From: a virus
Lineage: Duplodnaviria; Heunggongvirae; Uroviricota; Caudoviricetes
Strand: one strand, 5' to 3'
IMG/VR virus record: IMGVR_UViG_3300015181_000003
Location: 1 to 43,728 of that record
DNA: 43,728 nt
In this document: positions 1-43,728 of the stretch, piece after piece
Layout of the letters: every line of letters begins with the position of its first letter
Position numbering within the stretch: position 1 is the first letter of the stretch
Notes under the pieces: generated by a model
Database searches by the model: none
Told to the model about the DNA's origin: nothing
The model's input: the letters and a program-made list of their open reading frames with translations, nothing else
Position numbers and translations under genes: made by a program

Positions 1-341
1 AATTTGTTAAACGCTTCCTTAGAGAAAGGCTCGTCGTCAAAGCTCCAGCCGTTTACGACTTCTGCCGCAAGTTGCCGGTTGAGGTCTTCCGCCAGTTCGT
101 TAACCGCCAGGTTATATTCAGTATAGTCACCAGATTCTTTGGCGGCTTTTTCCAGTTCTTCAAAACGCGCCAACCCGCGACGGTACGCAATAATGAAAGC
201 ACGCCCCGCTTTAACGGCGACATCCGCATCGGGACTTACAACGTTAAGCCACTCACCGGAGTCTTCGCCGTTTGGCAGCAGAATAGGCATCTTCTTGCCT
301 ACCAGTGCTTTCTCTTCGAAATAAAAATCAGAAAGTTTCAT
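1..341 (-). CDS. tail assembly chaperone (gpG-like), 5' portion; gene crosses the window junction
   Basis: Minus-strand ORF from ATG at 341..339 (AAGGA 7 nt upstream) runs off the window start. Because 1..141 repeats 43588..43728, it continues to a TAG at 43509..43511 (420 nt, 139 aa, in frame). Sits immediately upstream of the tape measure gene. Confidence 0.5.
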   Translation of the reverse strand, partial: MKLSDFYFEEKALVGKKMPILLPNGEDSGEWLNVVSPDADVAVKAGRAFIIAYRRGLARFEELEKAAKESGDYTEYNLAVNELAEDLNRQLAAEVVNGWSFDDEPFSKEAFNK

Positions 342-449
342 TCTTTAATCCTTTGGTTAAGAGGTTACAGGTTAATGGTAAATGCGCCAGACGGGAACCA
401 CCCGCTTTTCGTGTGCGACACTAGGCGCAAAATTATTCTATCACATTAC

Positions 450-481
450 TTGCACACCCCAATATAATAGGGTACTATTCA
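450..481 (+). promoter_or_regulatory. conserved promoter/operator element (TTGCAC-N7-TATAAT-AGGGTACTATTCA) driving the 510..2097 module
   Basis: Perfect TATAAT at 463..468 about 40 nt upstream of ATG 510. Near-identical copies lie upstream of minus-strand operons at 22094..22125 and 20629..20660. Contains inverted repeat TAATAG-N4-CTATTC overlapping the -10. Confidence 0.45.
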
Positions 482-509
482 CTTACACCAACAATGAAGG
501 GGGTTTAAA

Positions 510-701
510 ATGTCCAGTTTACCAGTTTCCTTAATTCTGTTTGCACTGCTCGCTTATTTCGCGCCTTTCCTGGTCGCGTACTTCCGTAACCATAAAGCGA
601 AGTTAGCGATATTCATGGCTAATCTGTTTCTTGGTTGGATTCTGCTGCCGTGGGTCTTTATTTTAATCTGGGCGTGCAACTCGAATGTCAAAGAGAAGTG
701 A
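510..701 (+). CDS. small membrane protein, superinfection-immunity (Imm)-like
   Basis: 63 aa, two hydrophobic helices, motif NLFLGWILLPWVFILIWA resembling the Imm family signature (recalled, not searched). Strong SD GAAGGGGG before ATG 510. Confidence 0.55.
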   Translation: MSSLPVSLILFALLAYFAPFLVAYFRNHKAKLAIFMANLFLGWILLPWVFILIWACNSNVKEK

Positions 702-739
702 GCTAGTATAGGACAAATCCTAAACACGAGGAAGTAAGC

Positions 740-1870
740 ATGGCCCAGAAGAAAATAACCGACGAGCAGTTACAGGAAGAATTGAACGCCGGAACAAAGA
801 TTATCGACATATCCCGTAAATACGGCATCTCAGACCGCGTTATTCGTATCCGTAAAGCGAAGCTGGCGAAGAAAGGCGTAGGTCATGGTCGTGATGTTAG
901 TCACCTTGTGCCAGACGGCTACAAGATTAAAGGAACGTCATCACTGGTGGACGAGTTCGGCAACACTAAGCTGCAATGGGTTAAGACCGACACCGATGCG
1001 GAACGTCAGGTCGAGTTAATGAAGGCCATAATCGAGGGCATGAAGTCGGAGATTACCCCCGTTGCTCCTGTTAAAGCCGTTCGCGCCAAACGGGACGACA
1101 AGCTACTCAACCTTTACACTGTGTCTGATTTCCATCTCGGTATGCTGGCCTGGGCCGACGAGAGTGGCGACGACTGGGATATGAAGATTGCAGAAGACCT
1201 GTTCTCCCGTTGGTTCGATGCGGCATTCCAGAAAGCACCGGATGCGGGGACTGGGGTTATTAACCTGCTGGGCGACTTCGCGCACTTCGATAGTCTGGTT
1301 GCCGTTACACCTGCAAGCGGTCACGCCCTTGACGCTGACACCCGTTACCAGAAACTTGTCCGCTACATGATTCGCATGCTCCGCCGTGTTGTCGATATGG
1401 CGCTGGTTAAGCATAAAAATGTTCGCTTGCTTATCGTGCAAGGGAATCACGACGAAAGTGGCATGATTTGGTTGGCTGAGATGTTCAGTACGCTGTATGA
1501 CAATGAGCCGCGTGTGTTCGTCGATACGTCACCGGATGTTTACAAGATGGTGCAACACGGCAAAACGACGCTGTTCTTCCATCACGGGCATAAAGCACGA
1601 TTCGACGCTATTGAACCTGTTATGATTGCCAAGTTCCGTAAAGCGTTCGGCGAGAGTGTTTACAGCTACGCCCACGTAGGCCATCTGCACCACCAGAAGA
1701 TTGTAGAAAGCCGTAACATGATTGTTGAGCAACACCGCACCTTAGCGGCTAAAGACGCCTACGCCTCTCGCGGCGGATGGATGTCAGGCCGTAGTGCGAA
1801 TGTAATTACTTATAGCGCCGAATATGGCGAGGTAGCACGTTTAACTATTTCACCGGAGATGCTTGGATGA
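740..1870 (+). CDS. HTH-domain protein fused to calcineurin-like metallophosphoesterase (Mre11/SbcD-like or phosphodiesterase-like)
   Basis: 376 aa. N-terminal HTH-like segment (KIIDISRKYGISDRVIRIRKAKL). Metallophosphoesterase motifs in order: SDFHLG (DxH), GDFAHFD, GNHDE, HHGH, GHLHH. SD GAGGAAG before ATG 740. Confidence 0.7.
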   Translation: MAQKKITDEQLQEELNAGTKIIDISRKYGISDRVIRIRKAKLAKKGVGHGRDVSHLVPDGYKIKGTSSLVDEFGNTKLQWVKTDTDAERQVELMKAIIEGMKSEITPVAPVKAVRAKRDDKLLNLYTVSDFHLGMLAWADESGDDWDMKIAEDLFSRWFDAAFQKAPDAGTGVINLLGDFAHFDSLVAVTPASGHALDADTRYQKLVRYMIRMLRRVVDMALVKHKNVRLLIVQGNHDESGMIWLAEMFSTLYDNEPRVFVDTSPDVYKMVQHGKTTLFFHHGHKARFDAIEPVMIAKFRKAFGESVYSYAHVGHLHHQKIVESRNMIVEQHRTLAAKDAYASRGGWMSGRSANVITYSAEYGEVARLTISPEMLG

Positions 1871-2097
1871 CTTCAAAATACAACCGCACAATGACAAACA
1901 CTCACGGCAGCACTATGGCAGTAGACGTTTATGACGTGCTACGCGCTTTCGACATCCGCGACCCTGCGTTGCAACACGCATTGAAGAAGCTACTGTGCAT
2001 GGGCCTTCGCGGGCACAAAGACACCGGAACCGACTTAGCGGAAGCAATTGAAAGTCTGGAGAAGTTACGGGAGTACCGGAGTAATATTGATGAGTGA
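1867..2097 (+). CDS. hypothetical protein (76 aa), coupled to upstream gene
   Basis: ATG overlaps the stop of 740..1870 (ATGA); followed directly by a terminator hairpin. Confidence 0.45.
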   Translation: MTSKYNRTMTNTHGSTMAVDVYDVLRAFDIRDPALQHALKKLLCMGLRGHKDTGTDLAEAIESLEKLREYRSNIDE

Positions 2098-2100
2098 GAA

Positions 2101-2124
2101 AAAGGCCCCTTTCGGGGCCTTAGT
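2101..2124. terminator. rho-independent terminator hairpin (bidirectional)
   Basis: Stem AGGCCCC / GGGGCCT with loop TTTC, T-rich on both sides; lies between convergent genes ending at 2097 (+) and 2126 (-). Confidence 0.6.
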
Positions 2125-2125
2125 T

Positions 2126-2758
2126 TTATCGTTGCGACTTAATTACAGAAACGACTCTTGGATATATCCTCCCGTCTACGGAATCCATAAGCGGCTTAAG
2201 TTCTTCTGCTATTTCCAATTTCCGCAACGTTCTGGCCTTGATGGCTTCGTCCAAGTCAATAAAATCGCCTAAGTTTTCTCGCACCCCGGTTATGGGGTTA
2301 TTAACACGGCATCGTATCTTGCCGTTTGTTCTTCTATAAGTAAGGCCTATTGGTAGGTTTCCTCTGGCCGCTGCGCTGTCGGTCAGGAAGTTGTTTAAAA
2401 CTCTTGGGACGAAGATGCACGTCTCTGGCGAGTATTCTTTGGCGTCTGTAAGCAAATCCTTGTCTACATGCCAACCATCTACGTAATTATCTTTATACCA
2501 TTTAAAGTAGTTGGAGAAATACAGCCAGTCTTCGCATACTACCACACCCGCGTATGTTGGGTGCTTAGTGGCCCCGTGGTAGCACCTGAATATCATCGCA
2601 TACCAAATATCGTACACTGGGTGGTTAACAGACTTTTTGCCGTTGAAAATACTAGTGGTAAAATCAGCGTCGTTGATGCCGACGCCACAGATTGTTTTAC
2701 GGCATGATACCGCCCGTTTTGATGCAGGTATCTTTTCAAATTCTTCATACAGAAACAT
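2126..2758 (-). CDS. HNH-family homing endonuclease-like protein with C-terminal AP2 domain (free-standing)
   Basis: 210 aa. N-terminal motif YDIWYAMIFRC...YAGVVVCEDW...GWHVDKDLL...CIFVP typical of phage HNH endonucleases; C-terminal GLTYRRTNGKIRCRVNNPITGVRENLGDFIDLDEAIKA resembles an AP2 domain. Flanked by terminators on both sides. Confidence 0.55.
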   Translation of the reverse strand: MFLYEEFEKIPASKRAVSCRKTICGVGINDADFTTSIFNGKKSVNHPVYDIWYAMIFRCYHGATKHPTYAGVVVCEDWLYFSNYFKWYKDNYVDGWHVDKDLLTDAKEYSPETCIFVPRVLNNFLTDSAAARGNLPIGLTYRRTNGKIRCRVNNPITGVRENLGDFIDLDEAIKARTLRKLEIAEELKPLMDSVDGRIYPRVVSVIKSQR

Positions 2759-2797: not shown

Positions 2798-2826
2798 AAA
2801 GAGAGGGCACGACCCCTCTCTTTTTC
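2798..2826. terminator. rho-independent terminator (bidirectional)
   Basis: Stem GAGAGGG / CCCTCTC with loop CACGAC followed by TTTTT; lies just downstream of the major tail protein gene end. Confidence 0.6.
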
Positions 2827-2865: not shown

Positions 2866-4032
2866 TTATGCGTAACTAATACGTTGAATTACGATAGACG
2901 ACTGATATTGGTTGCCCGTGGACTGCCCTTCTATACTTTGGGTAATTGATTCCGGGCCAGATATTTCTGGTGTAACCGCCGTAAGCTCGGCACGTTTCAG
3001 GCTGAAAGACATAGCCCCGTTTACCCCCGCCAGAATAGAGTTAATCTCCACCTGCTGCTCGTTGATAAACTTCTGAATCATAGCCATGTCGTACAGCTTG
3101 CCGGAGATGGAGAATGTGTTAGCTGCGCGGCCACGTTCCACGAACGCCACGCTACTGTTGCCGAGTTCGAACTGCGCGGAAGCACCGTTGTCGTTGGTGA
3201 TGGTCAGAGTATCGCAACGTAACGGCGTAGAACCGTCGAACACGGACACATCTACGGATGAGAACGGCTCGTCAGTGAATGTGACCTGAGAGAAGTCGGA
3301 ACCCGCTGGCGGGCCGGAAAGAATCTCCTGACTCAGACCGATGAACGGGAAGCTGCCAGTTACCATCGCGTTTACGGCCTGCTCGATGGTGAAACCGGAG
3401 ATTTCTACTCCTTTGGTCAACATGTACGCGTCGGGGTTCCCGCACTGTCCTTTGAACCATGTCAGGATGGAGAACGTCTTACATGCGTTACCGGTTTCCA
3501 ATTTATCGCCTGTTTTAGCGTCGGTGGTTACAGTCTCTGCTGTCAGCGTGTGCTGGATACCCGCACCCGTAACTACAAGAGCAGAAACCTCAGTCACGAT
3601 AAACGGTTTTGCGTTGTCGCCGGTTAAGTCGGTGAACGCAATCAGGTCGCCAACTTCTACACCGTCAGTAATGAAGCTACCGGCAGCGCGGGTGAATGTT
3701 TTACCTGCTGGAGCGACCGTAATTTCAGCACCCGTAATCTCTACCCCATCCTGCCACGTAGAAGTCATAGCACCCGCAAGGAAATCATCCTGGCTACGTG
3801 AGCTAAGTTCGATGGCGTACTCCCCGCTGACCTGTTTGTTACCGGTGCGGATGGATGTGGTTTCTCTGCTGCCGTCGAGTTCGTTGGAAGTCAGCGCATC
3901 ACGGGTTACCGCGGGAACACCGCCCGTATTGCGCAACGGCGACCATACCGGGTTACTTGGTGTTACGCCCGGGGTAACTTCCGCCACATAGAATTGCGCG
4001 GTATTCGCGCCCTTAAAAGGAGTTGTAGCCAT
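2866..4032 (-). CDS. major tail protein (putative)
   Basis: About 388 aa. Positioned after neck/tail-completion genes and before the chaperone and tape measure genes. Track start 4038 is GTG; the ATG at 4032 follows a GAGG SD. Confidence 0.5.
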   Translation of the reverse strand: MATTPFKGANTAQFYVAEVTPGVTPSNPVWSPLRNTGGVPAVTRDALTSNELDGSRETTSIRTGNKQVSGEYAIELSSRSQDDFLAGAMTSTWQDGVEITGAEITVAPAGKTFTRAAGSFITDGVEVGDLIAFTDLTGDNAKPFIVTEVSALVVTGAGIQHTLTAETVTTDAKTGDKLETGNACKTFSILTWFKGQCGNPDAYMLTKGVEISGFTIEQAVNAMVTGSFPFIGLSQEILSGPPAGSDFSQVTFTDEPFSSVDVSVFDGSTPLRCDTLTITNDNGASAQFELGNSSVAFVERGRAANTFSISGKLYDMAMIQKFINEQQVEINSILAGVNGAMSFSLKRAELTAVTPEISGPESITQSIEGQSTGNQYQSSIVIQRISYA

Positions 4033-4034
4033 AT

Positions 4035-4493
4035 TCACAGCCTCTTGGTGAATGCAATAAAGTTAATTGACAATGGTCTTTTGGCCCATCCGTTTTCTAC
4101 AATCAGCGGCCCCAGGCTAACCGATTGAACCTCGGCGCAGATGTCGTTACGTGAAAATGACTTACCTGCTTTAAACGCCGTGTTAAGTAAGTCTGCCATT
4201 TTATTGACTGGCGCGCTACCTTTCACCGATGCGTAGTTAATGTCTACCTGATAGATGCCAGAGCGTTGTTCCGTGAAGAACAAATCCGCCTGTTCCGTAT
4301 CAGCGAGTAGCATGTAACTCGCCAGATACGGCGTATCTGTTGACGTCGGCGCGTCGATGTTTTCAAGCACAACCTTGATGCCGTTGGCGGTTCCGAATGT
4401 TACCAGCGGCACGTCAAACGCTTTTGTTAAGTCCTCAAAGTAGCCCATCATAGACCCCACATTTAGCTTCTTCCGAGGTAAGACGGCGGTCAT
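4035..4493 (-). CDS. tail terminator/completion-like protein
   Basis: ORF immediately upstream of the major tail protein gene with overlapping stop/start; the real start may be the ATG pair near 4451. Confidence 0.4.
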   Translation of the reverse strand: MTAVLPRKKLNVGSMMGYFEDLTKAFDVPLVTFGTANGIKVVLENIDAPTSTDTPYLASYMLLADTEQADLFFTEQRSGIYQVDINYASVKGSAPVNKMADLLNTAFKAGKSFSRNDICAEVQSVSLGPLIVENGWAKRPLSINFIAFTKRL

Positions 4494-9782: not shown

Positions 9783-10100
9783 GTTTCTCCTTTCTCGATA
9801 AGTAAAGCCCCGCCTTAAAGCGGGGTGCTAGTCCTTATCATTTAAACATAGAAACGGCGTAATCTCAGTAAACCAGTTACTTTTTACACAAGCAATAGAC
9901 TATGGCCCTTCCGAACGCGTCAGCGTAACTACACTCAGGACTTACGTCCCGCTCCGTTACCTGCCCGCGCCGCGGTCGCTTGTTCATACTTCACAAGCTC
10001 AGGTGGAGCTTAGCATATTTTTAGTGAAAAGTCAACTATTCGAATAGTTTATTCCAACATTTACAATTCGGTGGAATAACTGGAATAATCACAGGCACTA

Positions 10101-20628: not shown

Positions 20629-20660
20629 TGAATAGTAGCCTATTCTATCTTAGCGTGCAA
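20629..20660 (-). promoter_or_regulatory. conserved promoter/operator element (minus strand: TTGCAC-N7-TAGAAT-AGGCTACTATTCA)
   Basis: Third copy of the element found at 450..481 and 22094..22125; contains perfect inverted repeat GAATAG-N4-CTATTC; about 40 nt upstream of ATG 20599. Confidence 0.45.
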
Positions 20661-22062: not shown

Positions 22063-22093
22063 AACCCTCACTCCTCTGTCCCGTTTCGATAAG

Positions 22094-22125
22094 TGAATAG
22101 TATCCTATTATATCGGGGTGTGCAA
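22094..22125 (-). promoter_or_regulatory. conserved promoter/operator element (minus strand: TTGCAC-N7-TATAAT-AGGATACTATTCA), leftward early promoter
   Basis: Perfect TATAAT on the minus strand at about 22112..22107; nearly identical to 450..481 (+) and 20629..20660 (-). Confidence 0.5.
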
Positions 22126-22197
22126 GAGAATAGTTACGTTGCCGTTGTGATTCTTCAGGCAGGGTTGTGCCTTTATTCTTATTACTTGGTAACTAAA

Positions 22198-28706: not shown

Positions 28707-29181
28707 ATGGAACATATAAAAGATTTTCTAAGCTACGACCGAGAGACAGGGGTATTCACGTGGATACAGCCTACTTACCGTCGAGGGCGACCGGGAGACA
28801 TCGCGGGGTGCATCAATAGTAGTGGATACTGGCGAATTCCGTACATGGGTCGATATTACATGGCGCACAGGCTAGCGTGGTTTTTCGAGTATGGTGAATG
28901 GCCCGAAGGCCCTCTTGACCATATAAACCGTGACAGGTTAGACAATAGGATTTCTAACCTAAGGAAAGCAACAACCGCTGATAATGTGCGAAACGCTAAA
29001 AATAAGGGAGCTAGAACAGGAGTTAAGGGGGGTAGTTAAAAACGGCAACCGATTTTACGGGCGTGTGCATTTTAACTACAAAAGTTATAACGCCGGTAGC
29101 TACGGAACTCTTGAAGAAGCAGAAAGCGCTGTAAAGAAATTAAGAGAAAAACTGCACAAGGAATTTTATTGCCATGACTAG
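28707..29181 (+). pseudogene. HNH-AP2 homing endonuclease, split by a frameshift in a G6 run
   Basis: Frame 1 (28707..29039) carries the HNH motif YMAHRLAWFFEYGEWPEGPLDHINRDRLDNRISNLR. Frame 2 (28984..29181) carries an AP2-like domain GVVKNGNRFYGRVHFNYKSYNAGSYGTLEEAESA. Frames switch at GGGGGG 29027..29032; one extra G would fuse them. Confidence 0.55.
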
Positions 29182-31372
29182 TTTATTATACCTGGATACC
29201 GAGACGTTCTCTGGAGCGGACTTAAAGAAAGTCGGGTCGTATGCGTACGCGGAGCACCCAACGACAGAGGTTATAATTTGCACATATGCCGTTGATGATG
29301 GTCCTGTAGAAGTATGGGATTGCACTTCCGAACCAGTAATGCCAATAAGCCTACGTGTTGCGCTCCGTAATGTTATGCGCGGACGTATGAAAATCGTGGG
29401 CCATAACTTTTTAATGTTCGACCGCCTCATCATGAAACACTGCTGGGGTTTTGATATTCCCGTAAGTAACACCATTGATACGATGATTTGGGCGTTTCGT
29501 CACGCGCTGCCGGGTTCTCTCGATGCCTTGTGCCAAGTGCTGGGCGTATCTGCGGACAACGCGAAAGATAAACGCGGCAAGGCGCTGATTAAGCGTTTTT
29601 CTAAACCTACGCCAAAGAACTACAAAATTCGCCGGTACACCGCCGAGACACACCCTGATGAGTGGGCGCTGTTCATCAAGTACGCCGTGAGTGACATCAC
29701 TGCGATGCGTGAAGTATTCCATAAGCTGCCGCGGTGGGGTAACTCTGAGTTCGAGGACCGTGTACTGGAACTCGACCAGTTAATCAATGACCGCGGGTTT
29801 AAGGTTGACGTGGCACTGGCAGAAGCCGCGATTGAAGCCGTGGAGAAACACAAAGCACAGTTACAGGAAGAAGCCCAACGCAAATACGGCGGCTCGCTTA
29901 CCGGTAAAGACTTCCTTCCGATTCTACGTGAACTGGCTCCTGCGCACCGAATACACAACGCACAGAAATCGACGCTGAATGACCTGTTGGCAGACGATGA
30001 TTTACCTGACGACGCCCGCACGATTATCGAAATGCGACTCGGGGCCGCGTCCACCGCGTCAACGAAATATAACCCGCTGCTGTTGGGCCGCTCGTCGGAC
30101 GACCGCCGTCGTGGTTGCTTGCAGTACGGCGGGGCAAAACGCACTCTGCGATGGGCAGGTAAAGGCTTCCAGCCGCAGAACCTCGCGCGCGGGTACTATC
30201 ACGATGACGAACTGGATAAAGGCATTTCAGCGTTACTTAAGGGTCGCGCTCATCGCCGTTTCGACGTAGCCAAGCTAACGGCATCGACGGTTCGTAGCTG
30301 CATTATCCCGGAAGCAGGACATAAGTTTGTCGTCGCCGATTACTCGAACGTTGAAGGCCGGGGGCTTGCGTGGCTGGCTGGCGAAGAAACCGCGCTCGAT
30401 ACGTTCCGCGCTGGACTGGATATTTACTGCGTAACAGCAGGTAAGATGTTCGACATGGACCCCGACGATATTAAGAAAAACTTCAAGGAAATCAGACAGA
30501 TAGGCAAGGCTTGCGAGCTTGGCCTCGGCTATGAGGGCGGCGTCGGAGCGTTCGTTACATTCGCCAAAAACTTAGGTCTTGACCTTATTGAGATGGCAAA
30601 AACAATGGACGGTACATTCCCCGACCACATCTGGGCCGCTACCTCACGTGGGTATGAGTGGGCGCGAATTCAGGAAGCAAAGCGACCACCGCATCCGGGT
30701 GAAAAGGATGACAGACCATCGTATATTCTTGATAAGAAAGTGTGGCGCACATGTGACGCAATCAAGCGTATGTGGCGCGAGTCACACCCCGAAACAGTAG
30801 CGTTCTGGCGCGACCTTAAAGATGGAATCTTGGCCGCTGTTCGTAATCCTGGTCGTGAATTTTGGGCGGGAGCACACTTACGCAGGAATGGGGAAAGGGC
30901 CATCCGCATATGGCGTACTGTTGAATTTGATTCGTCCGGTAGGAAGGTTCCTGGTTGGTGGTTGTGTATGGAGTTGCCGTCAGGTCGCATCCTCTCGTAT
31001 CCGGGAATCGGGGTTAGTGTGACAAAGGAAACAGATGAAGACGGACGGGTGAACACAAATGTGCGAATCAAGTATCAAGGCGAAAACCAGTTAACCCGCC
31101 AATGGACTACCCTGTATACCCACGGCGGCAAAGCCTGTGAAAACATTGTTCAAGCGTTGTGCCGTGATTTACTCGCATATGCGATGATTAATGTTGAGGG
31201 TGGCGGGTACCCCATCGTGCTTTCGGTACACGATGAACTGGTGTGCGAAACTCCAGATGCGCCGGAATACAATGTCGCTGAACTCGAGCGGTTGATGTGC
31301 GAATTACCGGAATGGGCGGAGGGGTTCCCTCTTGTGGCGGAAGGACAGGAGTTAAAACGTTATGCTAAGTAA
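29174..31372 (+). CDS. DNA polymerase, family A, with 3'-5' exonuclease domain
   Basis: 732 aa; N-terminal exonuclease-like motif LYLDTETFS; long polymerase body. Confidence 0.85.
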   Translation: MTSLLYLDTETFSGADLKKVGSYAYAEHPTTEVIICTYAVDDGPVEVWDCTSEPVMPISLRVALRNVMRGRMKIVGHNFLMFDRLIMKHCWGFDIPVSNTIDTMIWAFRHALPGSLDALCQVLGVSADNAKDKRGKALIKRFSKPTPKNYKIRRYTAETHPDEWALFIKYAVSDITAMREVFHKLPRWGNSEFEDRVLELDQLINDRGFKVDVALAEAAIEAVEKHKAQLQEEAQRKYGGSLTGKDFLPILRELAPAHRIHNAQKSTLNDLLADDDLPDDARTIIEMRLGAASTASTKYNPLLLGRSSDDRRRGCLQYGGAKRTLRWAGKGFQPQNLARGYYHDDELDKGISALLKGRAHRRFDVAKLTASTVRSCIIPEAGHKFVVADYSNVEGRGLAWLAGEETALDTFRAGLDIYCVTAGKMFDMDPDDIKKNFKEIRQIGKACELGLGYEGGVGAFVTFAKNLGLDLIEMAKTMDGTFPDHIWAATSRGYEWARIQEAKRPPHPGEKDDRPSYILDKKVWRTCDAIKRMWRESHPETVAFWRDLKDGILAAVRNPGREFWAGAHLRRNGERAIRIWRTVEFDSSGRKVPGWWLCMELPSGRILSYPGIGVSVTKETDEDGRVNTNVRIKYQGENQLTRQWTTLYTHGGKACENIVQALCRDLLAYAMINVEGGGYPIVLSVHDELVCETPDAPEYNVAELERLMCELPEWAEGFPLVAEGQELKRYAK

Positions 31373-31770: not shown

Positions 31771-32069
31771 CACCGGAAGGCAAGATTCAGAAATACGCAA
31801 AAGAGCGATTCGAGGCCATTGGTGGCCTCGTCCGTAAGCTGTCATACGAAAACAGACGCGCGGCAATGGACCTGTTAGTGGTTCTCCCCCGCGGCGTCAT
31901 CTGGTTCGTCGAGGTCAAGAAAGACGGGAACACGAAGCCAGACCCGCACCAGCTACGGGAACATGAGAGATTCCGAAAACGTGGAGCTAATGTTTTTGTC
32001 GTTGGTTCGTTCAAACAGGTTGACGACCTAATAGCAGACTATTATAGTAGTCATACACCAACAATATAA
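31767..32069 (+). CDS. VRR-NUC domain nuclease
   Basis: 100 aa with DLLVVLPRGVIWFVEVKKDG...FRKRGANVFVV pattern recalled from the VRR-NUC family. Confidence 0.6.
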   Translation: MTPEGKIQKYAKERFEAIGGLVRKLSYENRRAAMDLLVVLPRGVIWFVEVKKDGNTKPDPHQLREHERFRKRGANVFVVGSFKQVDDLIADYYSSHTPTI

Positions 32070-32080
32070 GGAATTGAGAA

Positions 32081-32272
32081 ATGAAATACGAATATGACCG
32101 CAAACCAGCACGTGACATCGTACCTGGCGACATGATTTTCAACGTTAAAACACGTCGTCCTGTTGCCGTTGATACGGTGTTCGTCGAGTCGAACTGTAAA
32201 CTGGTTATCGAAGATGTAACTGGTAACGTTACGGCGTTCGGGCGTAAAGAGCTGGTTTTGGTGGCGAAATGA
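32081..32272 (+). CDS. hypothetical protein (63 aa)
   Basis: AAGGAA SD; its stop overlaps the methyltransferase start. Confidence 0.4.
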   Translation: MKYEYDRKPARDIVPGDMIFNVKTRRPVAVDTVFVESNCKLVIEDVTGNVTAFGRKELVLVAK

Positions 32273-43508: not shown

Positions 43509-43728
43509 CTACTTTTCCTGTAATGCCTTGCGCTCAGCGTTATGGAACGCCGCCACCTGGGTTCCAAGCCCTTTGAACTGGTCTAGCAATTTGTTAAACG
43601 CTTCCTTAGAGAAAGGCTCGTCGTCAAAGCTCCAGCCGTTTACGACTTCTGCCGCAAGTTGCCGGTTGAGGTCTTCCGCCAGTTCGTTAACCGCCAGGTT
43701 ATATTCAGTATAGTCACCAGATTCTTTG
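43509..43728 (-). CDS. tail assembly chaperone (gpG-like), 3' portion
   Basis: Continuation of the ORF starting at 341 across the junction; 43588..43728 duplicates 1..141; stop TAG at 43509..43511. Confidence 0.5.
   Translation of the reverse strand, partial: KESGDYTEYNLAVNELAEDLNRQLAAEVVNGWSFDDEPFSKEAFNKLLDQFKGLGTQVAAFHNAERKALQEK

What the first reader, a model, noticed from the sequence alone, without database searches (positions are those of the whole stretch)
342..2125. Early-type accessory module inserted in reverse orientation inside the tail gene cluster
The tail operon runs on the minus strand, but between the major tail protein gene and the chaperone gene sit three plus-strand genes (510..701 Imm-like membrane protein, 740..1870 HTH-metallophosphoesterase fusion, 1867..2097 small coupled ORF) plus a free-standing homing-endonuclease gene. 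The module has its own promoter at 450..481, a near-copy of the leftward early promoter element, and its own terminator at about 2101..2124. The enzyme motifs fit either an Mre11/SbcD-type nuclease or a class III cyclic-nucleotide phosphodiesterase. The Imm-like pairing suggests superinfection exclusion or counter-defence rather than virion assembly. This is the best candidate for an undescribed system in the window.
Basis: partly seen in the sequence, partly recalled or inferred. Interest (0 to 1): 0.75.

Follow-up and report, generated by a model that had tools for sequence, protein, structure and literature searches.

The report
Conserved nuclease-like operon splitting tail genes
Between two tail genes this Kagunavirus-type phage carries a small, separately controlled operon whose constant gene is probably a DNA-cutting enzyme with a DNA-binding head; the operon is real, but it is a standard, already annotated feature of its phage subfamily, and the enzyme is a core gene of thousands of phages that nobody has tested.

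Summary

The window is a complete Kagunavirus-like (Guernseyvirinae) genome. All eight relatives inspected, from both genera, carry the unit between the tail tube and tail chaperone genes, so it is not a recent insertion.

Only the 376-aa gene is constant. The Imm-like gene upstream and the genes downstream are swapped between relatives, so the three genes are not one system.

The 376-aa protein is a core gene. Homologues occur in 2075 phage records, and a published survey found its family in 508 of 522 T1-like phages. It has an N-terminal helix-turn-helix domain and an intact binuclear metallophosphoesterase domain. Its closest structures are PolD-DP1, Mre11 and SbcD nucleases, with the cyclic-nucleotide phosphodiesterase Rv0805 lower.

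Best reading: a DNA nuclease of phage DNA and nucleotide metabolism, functionally like T5 A1 but not demonstrably homologous to it. A counter-defence phosphodiesterase is not excluded. Interest is modest, because the kind is known but the biochemistry is untested.

The parts
1..341 (-). 5' part of the tail assembly chaperone gene (left flank). The gene continues across the window ends, because 1-141 equals 43588-43728.
   Evidence: phrog_15027 E=1.3e-55; identical ends.
342..449 (.). Conserved intergenic region upstream of the chaperone gene. Its core, 384-435, is unique in the genome. It may hold a divergent minus-strand promoter (TGATAGAAT, 443-435).
   Evidence: Near-invariant between Kagunavirus and Jerseyvirus. 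Unique in the window. No Rfam hit. No significant RNA fold, z=0.15. The extended -10 motif is not enriched genome-wide.
450..481 (+). Sigma-70-type promoter of the unit: TTGCAC (450-455), 17-nt spacer, TACTAT (473-478). The transcription start is inferred near 485.
   Evidence: Three copies of the motif in the genome against 0.06 expected. 95% identical over 37 nt to the copy at 22090-22126. Hexamer positions conserved in Jerseyvirus. A PHIRE-predicted promoter is annotated at the same place in phage fBC-Eco01.
510..701 (+). Imm-family two-transmembrane protein of 63 aa. It is swappable cargo in the promoter-proximal slot.
   Evidence: PF14373 E=1.3e-12, above the cut-off. phrog_1039 E=7.9e-23. 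Two hydrophobic segments. Absent in JSSK01 and replaced in fFiEco02. dN/dS 0.19-0.26.
740..1870 (+). Constant gene of the unit: HTH-metallophosphoesterase, 376 aa. Domains: HTH at aa 8-44 (nt 761-871); beta-hairpin plus helix at aa 61-102; metallophosphoesterase domain at aa 119-376 (nt 1094-1867).
1867..2097 (+). Translationally coupled 76-aa protein with a beta-hairpin and three helices; no family assignment. It fills the variable downstream slot.
   Evidence: 4-nt ATGA overlap. phrog_2452 E=8.1e-36, matching only the C-terminal part of that profile. No Pfam or PDB match. AlphaFold2 pLDDT 87.8. dN/dS 0.03-0.04.
2102..2121 (.). Bidirectional intrinsic terminator, GGCCCC-TTTC-GGGGCC, with T-runs on both strands. 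It ends the plus-strand unit and the converging minus-strand transcription.
   Evidence: Related hairpins at 10099, 11668, 28668 and 34691. In Bas74 it directly abuts the tail tube stop codon.
2126..2758 (-). Free-standing HNH endonuclease gene, part of a roughly 740-bp mobile insertion (about 2130-2865).
   Evidence: phrog_953 E=4e-70. Absent from Bas74 and present in ORH_001. GC 44.5% against 50.8% for the genome. No Pfam hit.
2798..2823 (-). Second terminator-like hairpin, just downstream of the tail tube gene. It lies inside the HNH insertion.
   Evidence: 10 pairs. Absent from Bas74 together with the HNH gene.
2866..4038 (-). Tail tube gene (right flank).
   Evidence: PF18906 E=2e-36.
22094..22125 (-). 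Sister promoter heading the leftward cluster of small ORFs.
20629..20660 (-). Third copy of the promoter motif, inside the leftward cluster and about 2 kb upstream of the holin and endolysin genes.

Best explanation
The region is a self-contained transcription unit read by host RNA polymerase. It sits at the natural break between the tail-tube transcription unit and the chaperone/tape-measure unit in all eight Guernseyvirinae genomes inspected.

Its one constant gene encodes an N-terminal helix-turn-helix domain fused to a binuclear-metal phosphoesterase of the Mre11/SbcD/PolD-DP1 structural type. I take this to be a metal-dependent DNA nuclease held on DNA by its HTH. It would serve phage DNA and nucleotide metabolism, most likely by breaking down host DNA or processing DNA ends to feed replication. 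In function it resembles T5 A1, with the A2-like DNA-binding part fused on.

The genes around it are interchangeable cargo that uses the same promoter and terminator:
- Upstream: an Imm-family membrane protein, which probably hinders DNA entry by superinfecting phage.
- Downstream: the 76-aa helical protein, or a PNKP-type 3'-phosphatase plus a dNMP-kinase-like protein, or HNH or Ant genes.

Shown: the anatomy, its conservation, the protein fold, the intact active site, and the fact that cargo is swapped.
Inferred: the substrate (DNA), the physiological role, the timing of expression, and the function of Imm.
For: - Anatomy: promoter family, bidirectional terminator, coupled ORFs.
- Same slot in eight inspected Guernseyvirinae genomes, in both genera. 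DNA matches in 452 records, against 524 records with the tail tube protein.
- Breadth of the enzyme family: 2075 phage records, 1959 of them full length; 4635 clusters at 50% identity; part of a module persistent in 508 of 522 Drexlerviridae (PMC13164509).
- All metallophosphoesterase motifs are invariant across 53 diverse homologues.
- N-terminal regions of family members match Sigma70_r4_2 (1.5e-9), GerE (2.4e-8) and HTH_8 (2.6e-7).
- Neighbouring genes. A PNKP-type HAD phosphatase and a dNMP-kinase-like gene follow the enzyme in Kagunavirus CM001 and VIPECOTH07 and in Klebsiella Webervirus. They are the commonest followers in Drexlerviridae. In a Campylobacter phage the gene lies next to a ligase and a Holliday-junction resolvase.
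- T5 A1 is a predicted metallophosphatase with the same structural neighbours. It is necessary and sufficient for host DNA degradation (bioRxiv 10.64898/2026.04.02.716235). Its neighbourhood is parallel: the A2 DNA-binding protein, a two-transmembrane ORF, A1 and the HAD enzyme Dmp. In a Vibrio T5-like phage a 'polynucleotide kinase' gene follows A1.
Against: - No biochemical or genetic data exist for any member of this family that I could find.
- Foldseek ties Mre11 with the cAMP phosphodiesterase Rv0805, both at E=2.1e-08. The motif set is shared by nucleases and class III phosphodiesterases.
- There is no capping domain and no Rad50/SbcC partner.
- The genome already encodes an exonuclease (phrog_69) and a Gp2.5-like annealing protein, so a recombination role would be redundant.
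- Profile comparison with the T5 A1 family aligns only motif III (probability 21%).
- Pfam scores for the window protein are below the gathering thresholds.
- Host DNA degradation by Guernseyvirinae is not documented in what I searched.
Confidence: 0.55

Rival explanations
1. The enzyme is a counter-defence phosphodiesterase. It would destroy cyclic nucleotide or oligonucleotide alarm signals from CBASS, Pycsar, Thoeris or type III CRISPR systems, in the manner of a class III cNMP phosphodiesterase.
For: The motif set is the same as in class III phosphodiesterases. Foldseek ranks Rv0805 level with Mre11 at E=2.1e-08. The promoter is host-type and independent of the tail genes. An exclusion-type gene lies next to it.
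Confidence: 0.12
2. The enzyme heals nucleic-acid ends as a 2',3'-cyclic phosphodiesterase or 3'-phosphatase, like the phosphoesterase module of bacterial Pnkp. It would work with the HAD phosphatase and P-loop kinase often encoded just downstream, repairing RNA or DNA cut by host nucleases.
For: A PNKP-type HAD phosphatase (PF25109, E=6.7e-20) and a P-loop kinase recur directly after the enzyme in two phage families. The HAD protein is 31-42% identical to the Pnk gene region of T4-like phages. That bacterial Pnkp carries a calcineurin-type phosphoesterase module is from my own knowledge.
Against: The window itself and many relatives lack the HAD and kinase genes. In other T1-like phages the HAD gene lies far from the enzyme, for example 12 kb away in BEK12B. 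I saw no ligase gene in the unit. A second 3'-phosphatase would duplicate the HAD enzyme. The closest structures are exonucleases and endonucleases.
Confidence: 0.12
3. This is the reader's view: Imm and the enzyme (with the 76-aa protein) form one superinfection-exclusion system. Imm would block entry and the nuclease would destroy incoming rival DNA.
For: The genes share one promoter and terminator and are tightly packed. Imm family membership is solid.
Against: Imm is absent or replaced in close relatives that keep the enzyme. Imm homologues occur in 368 records against 2075 for the enzyme. The 76-aa family sits away from the enzyme outside this subfamily. The selection regimes differ: dN/dS is about 0.2 for imm and 0.03 for the enzyme.
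Confidence: 0.07
4. The protein is mainly a regulator. The HTH, which resembles sigma-70 region 4 or GerE, would bind DNA or RNA polymerase to switch transcription, with the phosphoesterase domain playing a secondary part.
For: Sigma70_r4_2 and GerE hits in family members. T5 A1 is reported to interact with RNA polymerase and to dampen pre-early transcription.
Against: Every catalytic residue is invariant across 53 divergent homologues, so catalysis is under selection. The Campylobacter-phage homologue matches only from aa 65 onward, so it appears to lack the HTH.
Confidence: 0.05

Closest known systems
phrog_704 'DNA repair exonuclease', the HTH-metallophosphoesterase family of Drexlerviridae, Dhillonvirus and Guernseyvirinae
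   Same: Full-length match at E=3.4e-164. The domain order is the same. Identity to T1-like and Dhillonvirus proteins is 41-75%.
   Different: Nothing structural differs; the window protein is a member. Only the genomic position differs. In this subfamily the gene lies between tail genes with an Imm gene. In Drexlerviridae, Dhillonvirus, and the Vibrio and Rhodobacter phages inspected, it lies next to the lysis cassette. The family name is an annotation, not a tested function.
Mre11 / SbcD nucleases and the PolD DP1 proofreading exonuclease
   Different: Sequence identity is only 12-17%. The AlphaFold2 model shows no capping domain after the core. No Rad50/SbcC or DP2 partner was found among the ORFs I annotated. 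The protein adds an N-terminal HTH and a conserved family-specific segment after motif II (aa 183-201; T190 invariant, L197 and D198 nearly so).
Bacteriophage T5 A1, the pre-early host-DNA-degrading metallophosphatase, with A2 and Dmp
   Same: Both are stand-alone phage metallophosphoesterases with Mre11-like and DP1-like structural neighbours. The neighbourhoods are parallel: a DNA-binding HTH, a small two-transmembrane protein, and a HAD phosphatase.
   Different: Homology cannot be shown beyond motif III (hhalign probability 21%). A1 is 556 aa with a large unrelated N-terminal half, and its DNA-binding partner A2 is a separate protein.
T4 Imm (PF14373)
   Same: The Pfam match is above threshold. 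The protein is small and has two transmembrane segments.
   Different: It is 63 aa and belongs to a siphovirus. The exclusion function is untested here, and the gene is dispensable among close relatives.
Class III cyclic-nucleotide phosphodiesterases (Rv0805, CpdA)
   Same: Same superfamily and motif pattern. Foldseek E=2.1e-08.

Membership tests
Calcineurin-like metallophosphoesterase superfamily | Five metal-binding motifs: DxH, GD, GNH(D/E), H, GHxH | tested here: met
   D130-x-H132, G178-D179, G235-N236-H237-D238, H282 and G314-H315-x-H317 are invariant or nearly so in 53 homologues.
Calcineurin-like metallophosphoesterase superfamily | Pfam model score above the gathering threshold | tested here: inconclusive
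   Metallophos_2 scores 21.2 bits against 27. Metallophos scores 18.9 against 21.5. Other family members reach E=3.9e-05.
Calcineurin-like metallophosphoesterase superfamily | Four-layer alpha/beta sandwich fold | tested here: met
Mre11/SbcD | Nuclease core most similar to Mre11/SbcD | tested here: met
Mre11/SbcD | C-terminal capping domain | tested here: not met
   The model ends with the phosphoesterase core at residue 376, and only 185-190 residues align to Mre11/SbcD.
Mre11/SbcD | Rad50/SbcC ATPase partner gene | tested here: not met
   None lies adjacent, and none was found among the large ORFs I annotated. Not every ORF in the window was scanned.
Mre11/SbcD | Mn2+-dependent exonuclease and endonuclease activity | not testable with these tools
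   Needs an enzyme assay.
Class III cNMP phosphodiesterase | Signature D-(x)n-GD-(x)n-GNH[E/D]-(x)n-H-(x)n-GHxH | tested here: met
   Present, but the signature does not separate this class from nucleases.
Class III cNMP phosphodiesterase | Closest structural neighbours are cNMP phosphodiesterases | tested here: not met
T5 A1 family | Detectable sequence or profile homology across the domain | tested here: not met
   BLASTP E=0.26. hhalign aligns 27 columns at probability 21%.
Imm_superinfect (T4 Imm, PF14373) | Pfam match above the gathering score and two transmembrane helices | tested here: met
   47.9 bits against 27.9. Hydropathy peaks at about aa 4-25 and 31-56.
Imm_superinfect (T4 Imm, PF14373) | Blocks DNA entry of superinfecting phage | not testable with these tools
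   Needs plating and DNA-entry assays.
HNH homing endonuclease | HNH family match | tested here: inconclusive
   phrog_953 E=4e-70, but no Pfam HNH hit. The annotators of the fFiEco02 orthologue note similarity to the I-HmuI HNH motif.
HNH homing endonuclease | Presence/absence polymorphism between close relatives at a fixed site | tested here: met
   The roughly 740-bp cassette is absent in Bas74 and present in ORH_001.
Multi-gene defence or anti-defence system | Components co-occur and are co-inherited across lineages | tested here: not met
   Imm is found in 368 records, the 76-aa gene in 774 and the enzyme in 2075. Partners are swapped within the genus. There are no PADLOC hits.

The most novel reading that the evidence does not exclude
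The HTH-metallophosphoesterase family is the stand-alone nuclease that T1-like, Dhillonvirus-type and Guernseyvirinae phages use to take over the host and degrade its chromosome. It would be a functional counterpart of T5 A1 with the A2-like DNA-binding part fused on. That would make it a core enzyme of more than 2000 sequenced phages that has never been characterised.
Probability: 0.25. Interest if true: 0.6.

Novelty: new member of a known kind. Interest (0 to 1): 0.35.

Why it matters
For this window it matters little. The unit is the standard arrangement in its subfamily and is already annotated in hundreds of genomes.

The wider point is that the 376-aa enzyme belongs to one of the most widespread core gene families of virulent enterobacterial siphophages (Drexlerviridae, Dhillonvirus, Guernseyvirinae), many of which are phage-therapy candidates. 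It is labelled 'DNA repair exonuclease' without any experiment behind the name. Knowing whether it degrades host DNA, processes replication ends or removes defence signals would clarify how these small phages take over the cell. It would also show whether the gene can be removed or exploited in engineered phages such as CM001.

The slot around the enzyme is also a natural place where cargo is exchanged (Imm, phosphatase and kinase, Ant, HNH). It could be used as an insertion site.

Tried and rejected
- Sequence search of the PDB with the single protein and with a 53-sequence profile found nothing significant. The best hits were GerE at 0.03 and Mre11 at 0.33.
- NCBIfam and PADLOC gave no meaningful hits.
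- Rfam found nothing in the whole window.
- Folding the conserved intergenic region as RNA gave no signal, z=0.15.
- I tested whether the small ORFs that follow the enzyme in a T1-like phage and a Dhillonvirus match the 76-aa ORF. By eye they do not. The T1-like one corresponds in position to the SH3 protein described in PMC13164509.
- I tested whether the 76-aa family stays next to the enzyme outside Guernseyvirinae. It does not. It has no Pfam or PDB assignment. A resemblance to DUF3310 that I recalled from memory found no support.
- Homology to T5 A1 was rejected at both the sequence and the profile level. The viral fold library showed no named A1 hit in the top 50, although many entries carry no name.
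- Literature searches for experiments on this family in Kagunavirus, Jerseyvirus or T1-like phages found none.
- The supplements of the K1B4 RNA-seq paper did not give the expression class of the enzyme gene.
- An extended -10 motif as a general late-promoter signal was rejected: 6 sites found against 4.9 expected.
Full report
**What the window is.** The two ends are identical over 141 bp. Megablast places the region in Kagunavirus phages at about 90% DNA identity, with weaker matches throughout Salmonella Jerseyvirus (452 records). The window is therefore a complete genome of the subfamily Guernseyvirinae.
- Structural genes run on the minus strand, from the terminase near 15 kb down to the tail tube at 2866-4038. 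They continue across the window ends with the chaperone, tape-measure and distal tail genes.
- Replication genes run on the plus strand from about 22.5 to 34.5 kb.

**The observation.**
- ORFs lie at 510-701, 740-1870 and 1867-2097 on the plus strand, and an HNH gene lies at 2126-2758 on the minus strand.
- The flanks are a tail tube gene (PF18906, E=2e-36) and a tail assembly chaperone (phrog_15027, E=1.3e-55).
- The promoter TTGCAC-N17-TACTATTCA at 450-481 has two more exact-motif copies, both on the minus strand at 22125 and 20660. That is 3 found against 0.06 expected. The copy at 22090-22126 is 95% identical over 37 nt.
- In Jerseyvirus the two hexamers keep their position while the spacer differs. 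This is the pattern expected of a real promoter.
- A related promoter at 32020 (+) shares the ACACCAACAAT leader.
- The hairpin at 2102-2121 has T-runs on both sides. In phage Bas74 it directly abuts the tail tube stop codon. It therefore ends both converging units.
- All three plus-strand ORFs are under purifying selection.

**It is not an insertion and not accessory.** Eight Guernseyvirinae genomes from both genera have the same unit between the chaperone and tail tube genes. They are ORH_001, buks, fBC-Eco01, Bas74, Jersey, CM001, VIPECOTH07 and JSSK01/fFiEco02. Only the 376-aa gene is constant.
- The upstream slot holds Imm (63 aa) here, nothing annotated in JSSK01, and an unrelated 108-aa ORF in fFiEco02.
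- The downstream slot holds one of four sets of genes:
  - the 76-aa ORF alone (this window, Bas74);
  - extra small ORFs;
  - an HNH gene, the 76-aa ORF and an Ant/Rha protein (buks, Jersey);
  - a PNKP-type HAD 3'-phosphatase with a dNMP-kinase-like protein (CM001, VIPECOTH07).
- The HNH cassette of the window is an indel of about 740 bp relative to Bas74 and has low GC.
- The enzyme gene has the GC content of the genome.

**The enzyme family.**
- tblastn finds the 376-aa protein in 2075 phage records, nearly all at full length. They include Drexlerviridae, Dhillonvirus, and Vibrio, Rhodobacter, Ralstonia and Campylobacter phages.
- An exhaustive search finds 4635 clusters at 50% identity.
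[quoted passage not shown] It also reports a polynucleotide kinase and a dNMP kinase as the genes that most often follow the exonuclease (PMC13164509). I saw the same trio in a Klebsiella Webervirus, whose HAD protein is 57% identical to that of Kagunavirus CM001.
- Outside Guernseyvirinae the 76-aa family is not next to the enzyme. Imm homologues are largely confined to this subfamily.
- The three genes are therefore not a co-inherited system.

**What the enzyme looks like.**
- An alignment of 53 homologues at 33-50% identity shows all metallophosphoesterase motifs invariant: D130/H132, G178/D179, N236/H237, H282 and G314/H317. A family-specific conserved segment follows motif II.
- The AlphaFold2 model is confident, with pLDDT 90.9. 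It has a three-helix N-terminal domain (aa 8-44), a beta-hairpin plus helix (aa 61-102) and the catalytic domain (aa 119-376).
- N-terminal domains of family members match Sigma70_r4_2, GerE and Fis-type HTH models. The family profile weakly matches GerE.
- There is no capping domain and no Rad50/SbcC partner, so this is not an Mre11/SbcD orthologue. It is a separate clade of the same fold.

**Most likely function.** The evidence points to DNA as the substrate:
- a conserved DNA-binding domain;
- nuclease-type structural neighbours;
- core-gene status;
- nucleic-acid and nucleotide enzymes as recurrent neighbours.

The closest functional precedent is T5 A1. It is a predicted metallophosphatase with the same structural neighbours, and it is necessary and sufficient for host DNA degradation. 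Its neighbourhood includes the DNA-binding protein A2, a two-transmembrane ORF and the HAD enzyme Dmp. Dmp shares the DLDGT...HR motif with the Kagunavirus HAD protein. In a Vibrio T5-like phage a 'polynucleotide kinase' gene follows A1. Homology to A1 cannot be shown, because only motif III aligns, so this is an analogy. That classical T1 genetics describes host DNA degradation is my recollection, and I could not find support in the library.

**Expression timing.** The promoter type argues for host RNA polymerase and for regulation independent of the flanking tail genes. One of its sister promoters lies about 2 kb upstream of the holin and endolysin genes, so the label 'early' is an inference. 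The one Kagunavirus RNA-seq study puts imm in a class with the DNA polymerase and methylases, apart from the tail genes, but calls that class 'late' on a coarse 120-minute scale.

**Verdict.** The unit is an ordinary, conserved and already annotated feature. Its central gene is a new member of a known enzyme kind whose real activity is untested.

Noticed in passing
window 1-141 and 43588-43728: The two ends of the window are identical over 141 bp. The window is therefore a whole circularly closed or permuted phage genome, and the chaperone gene at the left edge continues at the right edge.
   Followed up: partly
window 342-449 (core 384-435): The intergenic stretch upstream of the chaperone gene is almost invariant between Kagunavirus and Jerseyvirus. 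It is unique in the genome, has no Rfam match and no significant RNA fold. A minus-strand extended -10 (TGATAGAAT, 443-435) keeps its position in Jerseyvirus (TGTTATTCT). This suggests a divergent promoter for the chaperone/tape-measure unit, but the motif is not enriched genome-wide.
   Followed up: partly
window 32020-32080 (+): A fourth host-type promoter, TTGACG-N17-TATAGT, is followed by the same ACACCAACAAT leader as the imm transcript. It lies in the rightward replication region, just upstream of an ATG at 32082.
   Followed up: no
window 2102, 10099, 11668, 28668, 34691: A family of near-identical GGCCCC-loop-GGGGCC hairpins lies between transcription units. Several have T-runs on both sides. 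In ORH_001 the loop at the 2102 site reads GAAA instead of TTTC while the stem is unchanged.
   Followed up: partly
L015:4711-5750 (UTI-CM001); L017:3628-4667; L016:4535-5727: A PNKP-type HAD 3'-phosphatase and a dNMP-kinase-like P-loop protein directly follow the enzyme in some Kagunaviruses and in Klebsiella Webervirus (HAD proteins 57% identical). The same three-gene block is thus shared between unrelated siphophage groups.
   Followed up: partly
window 1867-2097; L007:2635-3216: The 76-aa protein matches only the C-terminal part of larger PHROG profiles (positions 150-220 of 235). In an Acinetobacter phage it forms the C-terminal end of a 193-aa ORF. It is therefore a mobile small domain (beta-hairpin plus three helices) of unknown function, with a strongly conserved DVYDVL...QHALKKLLC.GLRGHKD motif.
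   Followed up: partly
window 29174-31372 (+), aa 444-537: The DNA polymerase ORF has a secondary PHROG match to an 'endonuclease' family within its middle region. I did not examine it.
   Followed up: no
window 72-467 (+): A 131-aa ORF lies antisense to the chaperone gene and upstream of the promoter. It is probably spurious, although short ORFs in this stretch are annotated as hypothetical proteins in some GenBank relatives.
   Followed up: no
Jerseyvirus loci L004 and L010 compared with H29/H30: Jerseyvirus genomes carry two very different alleles of the enzyme, about 87% and about 55% identical to the window protein. This suggests allele exchange within the subfamily.
   Followed up: no
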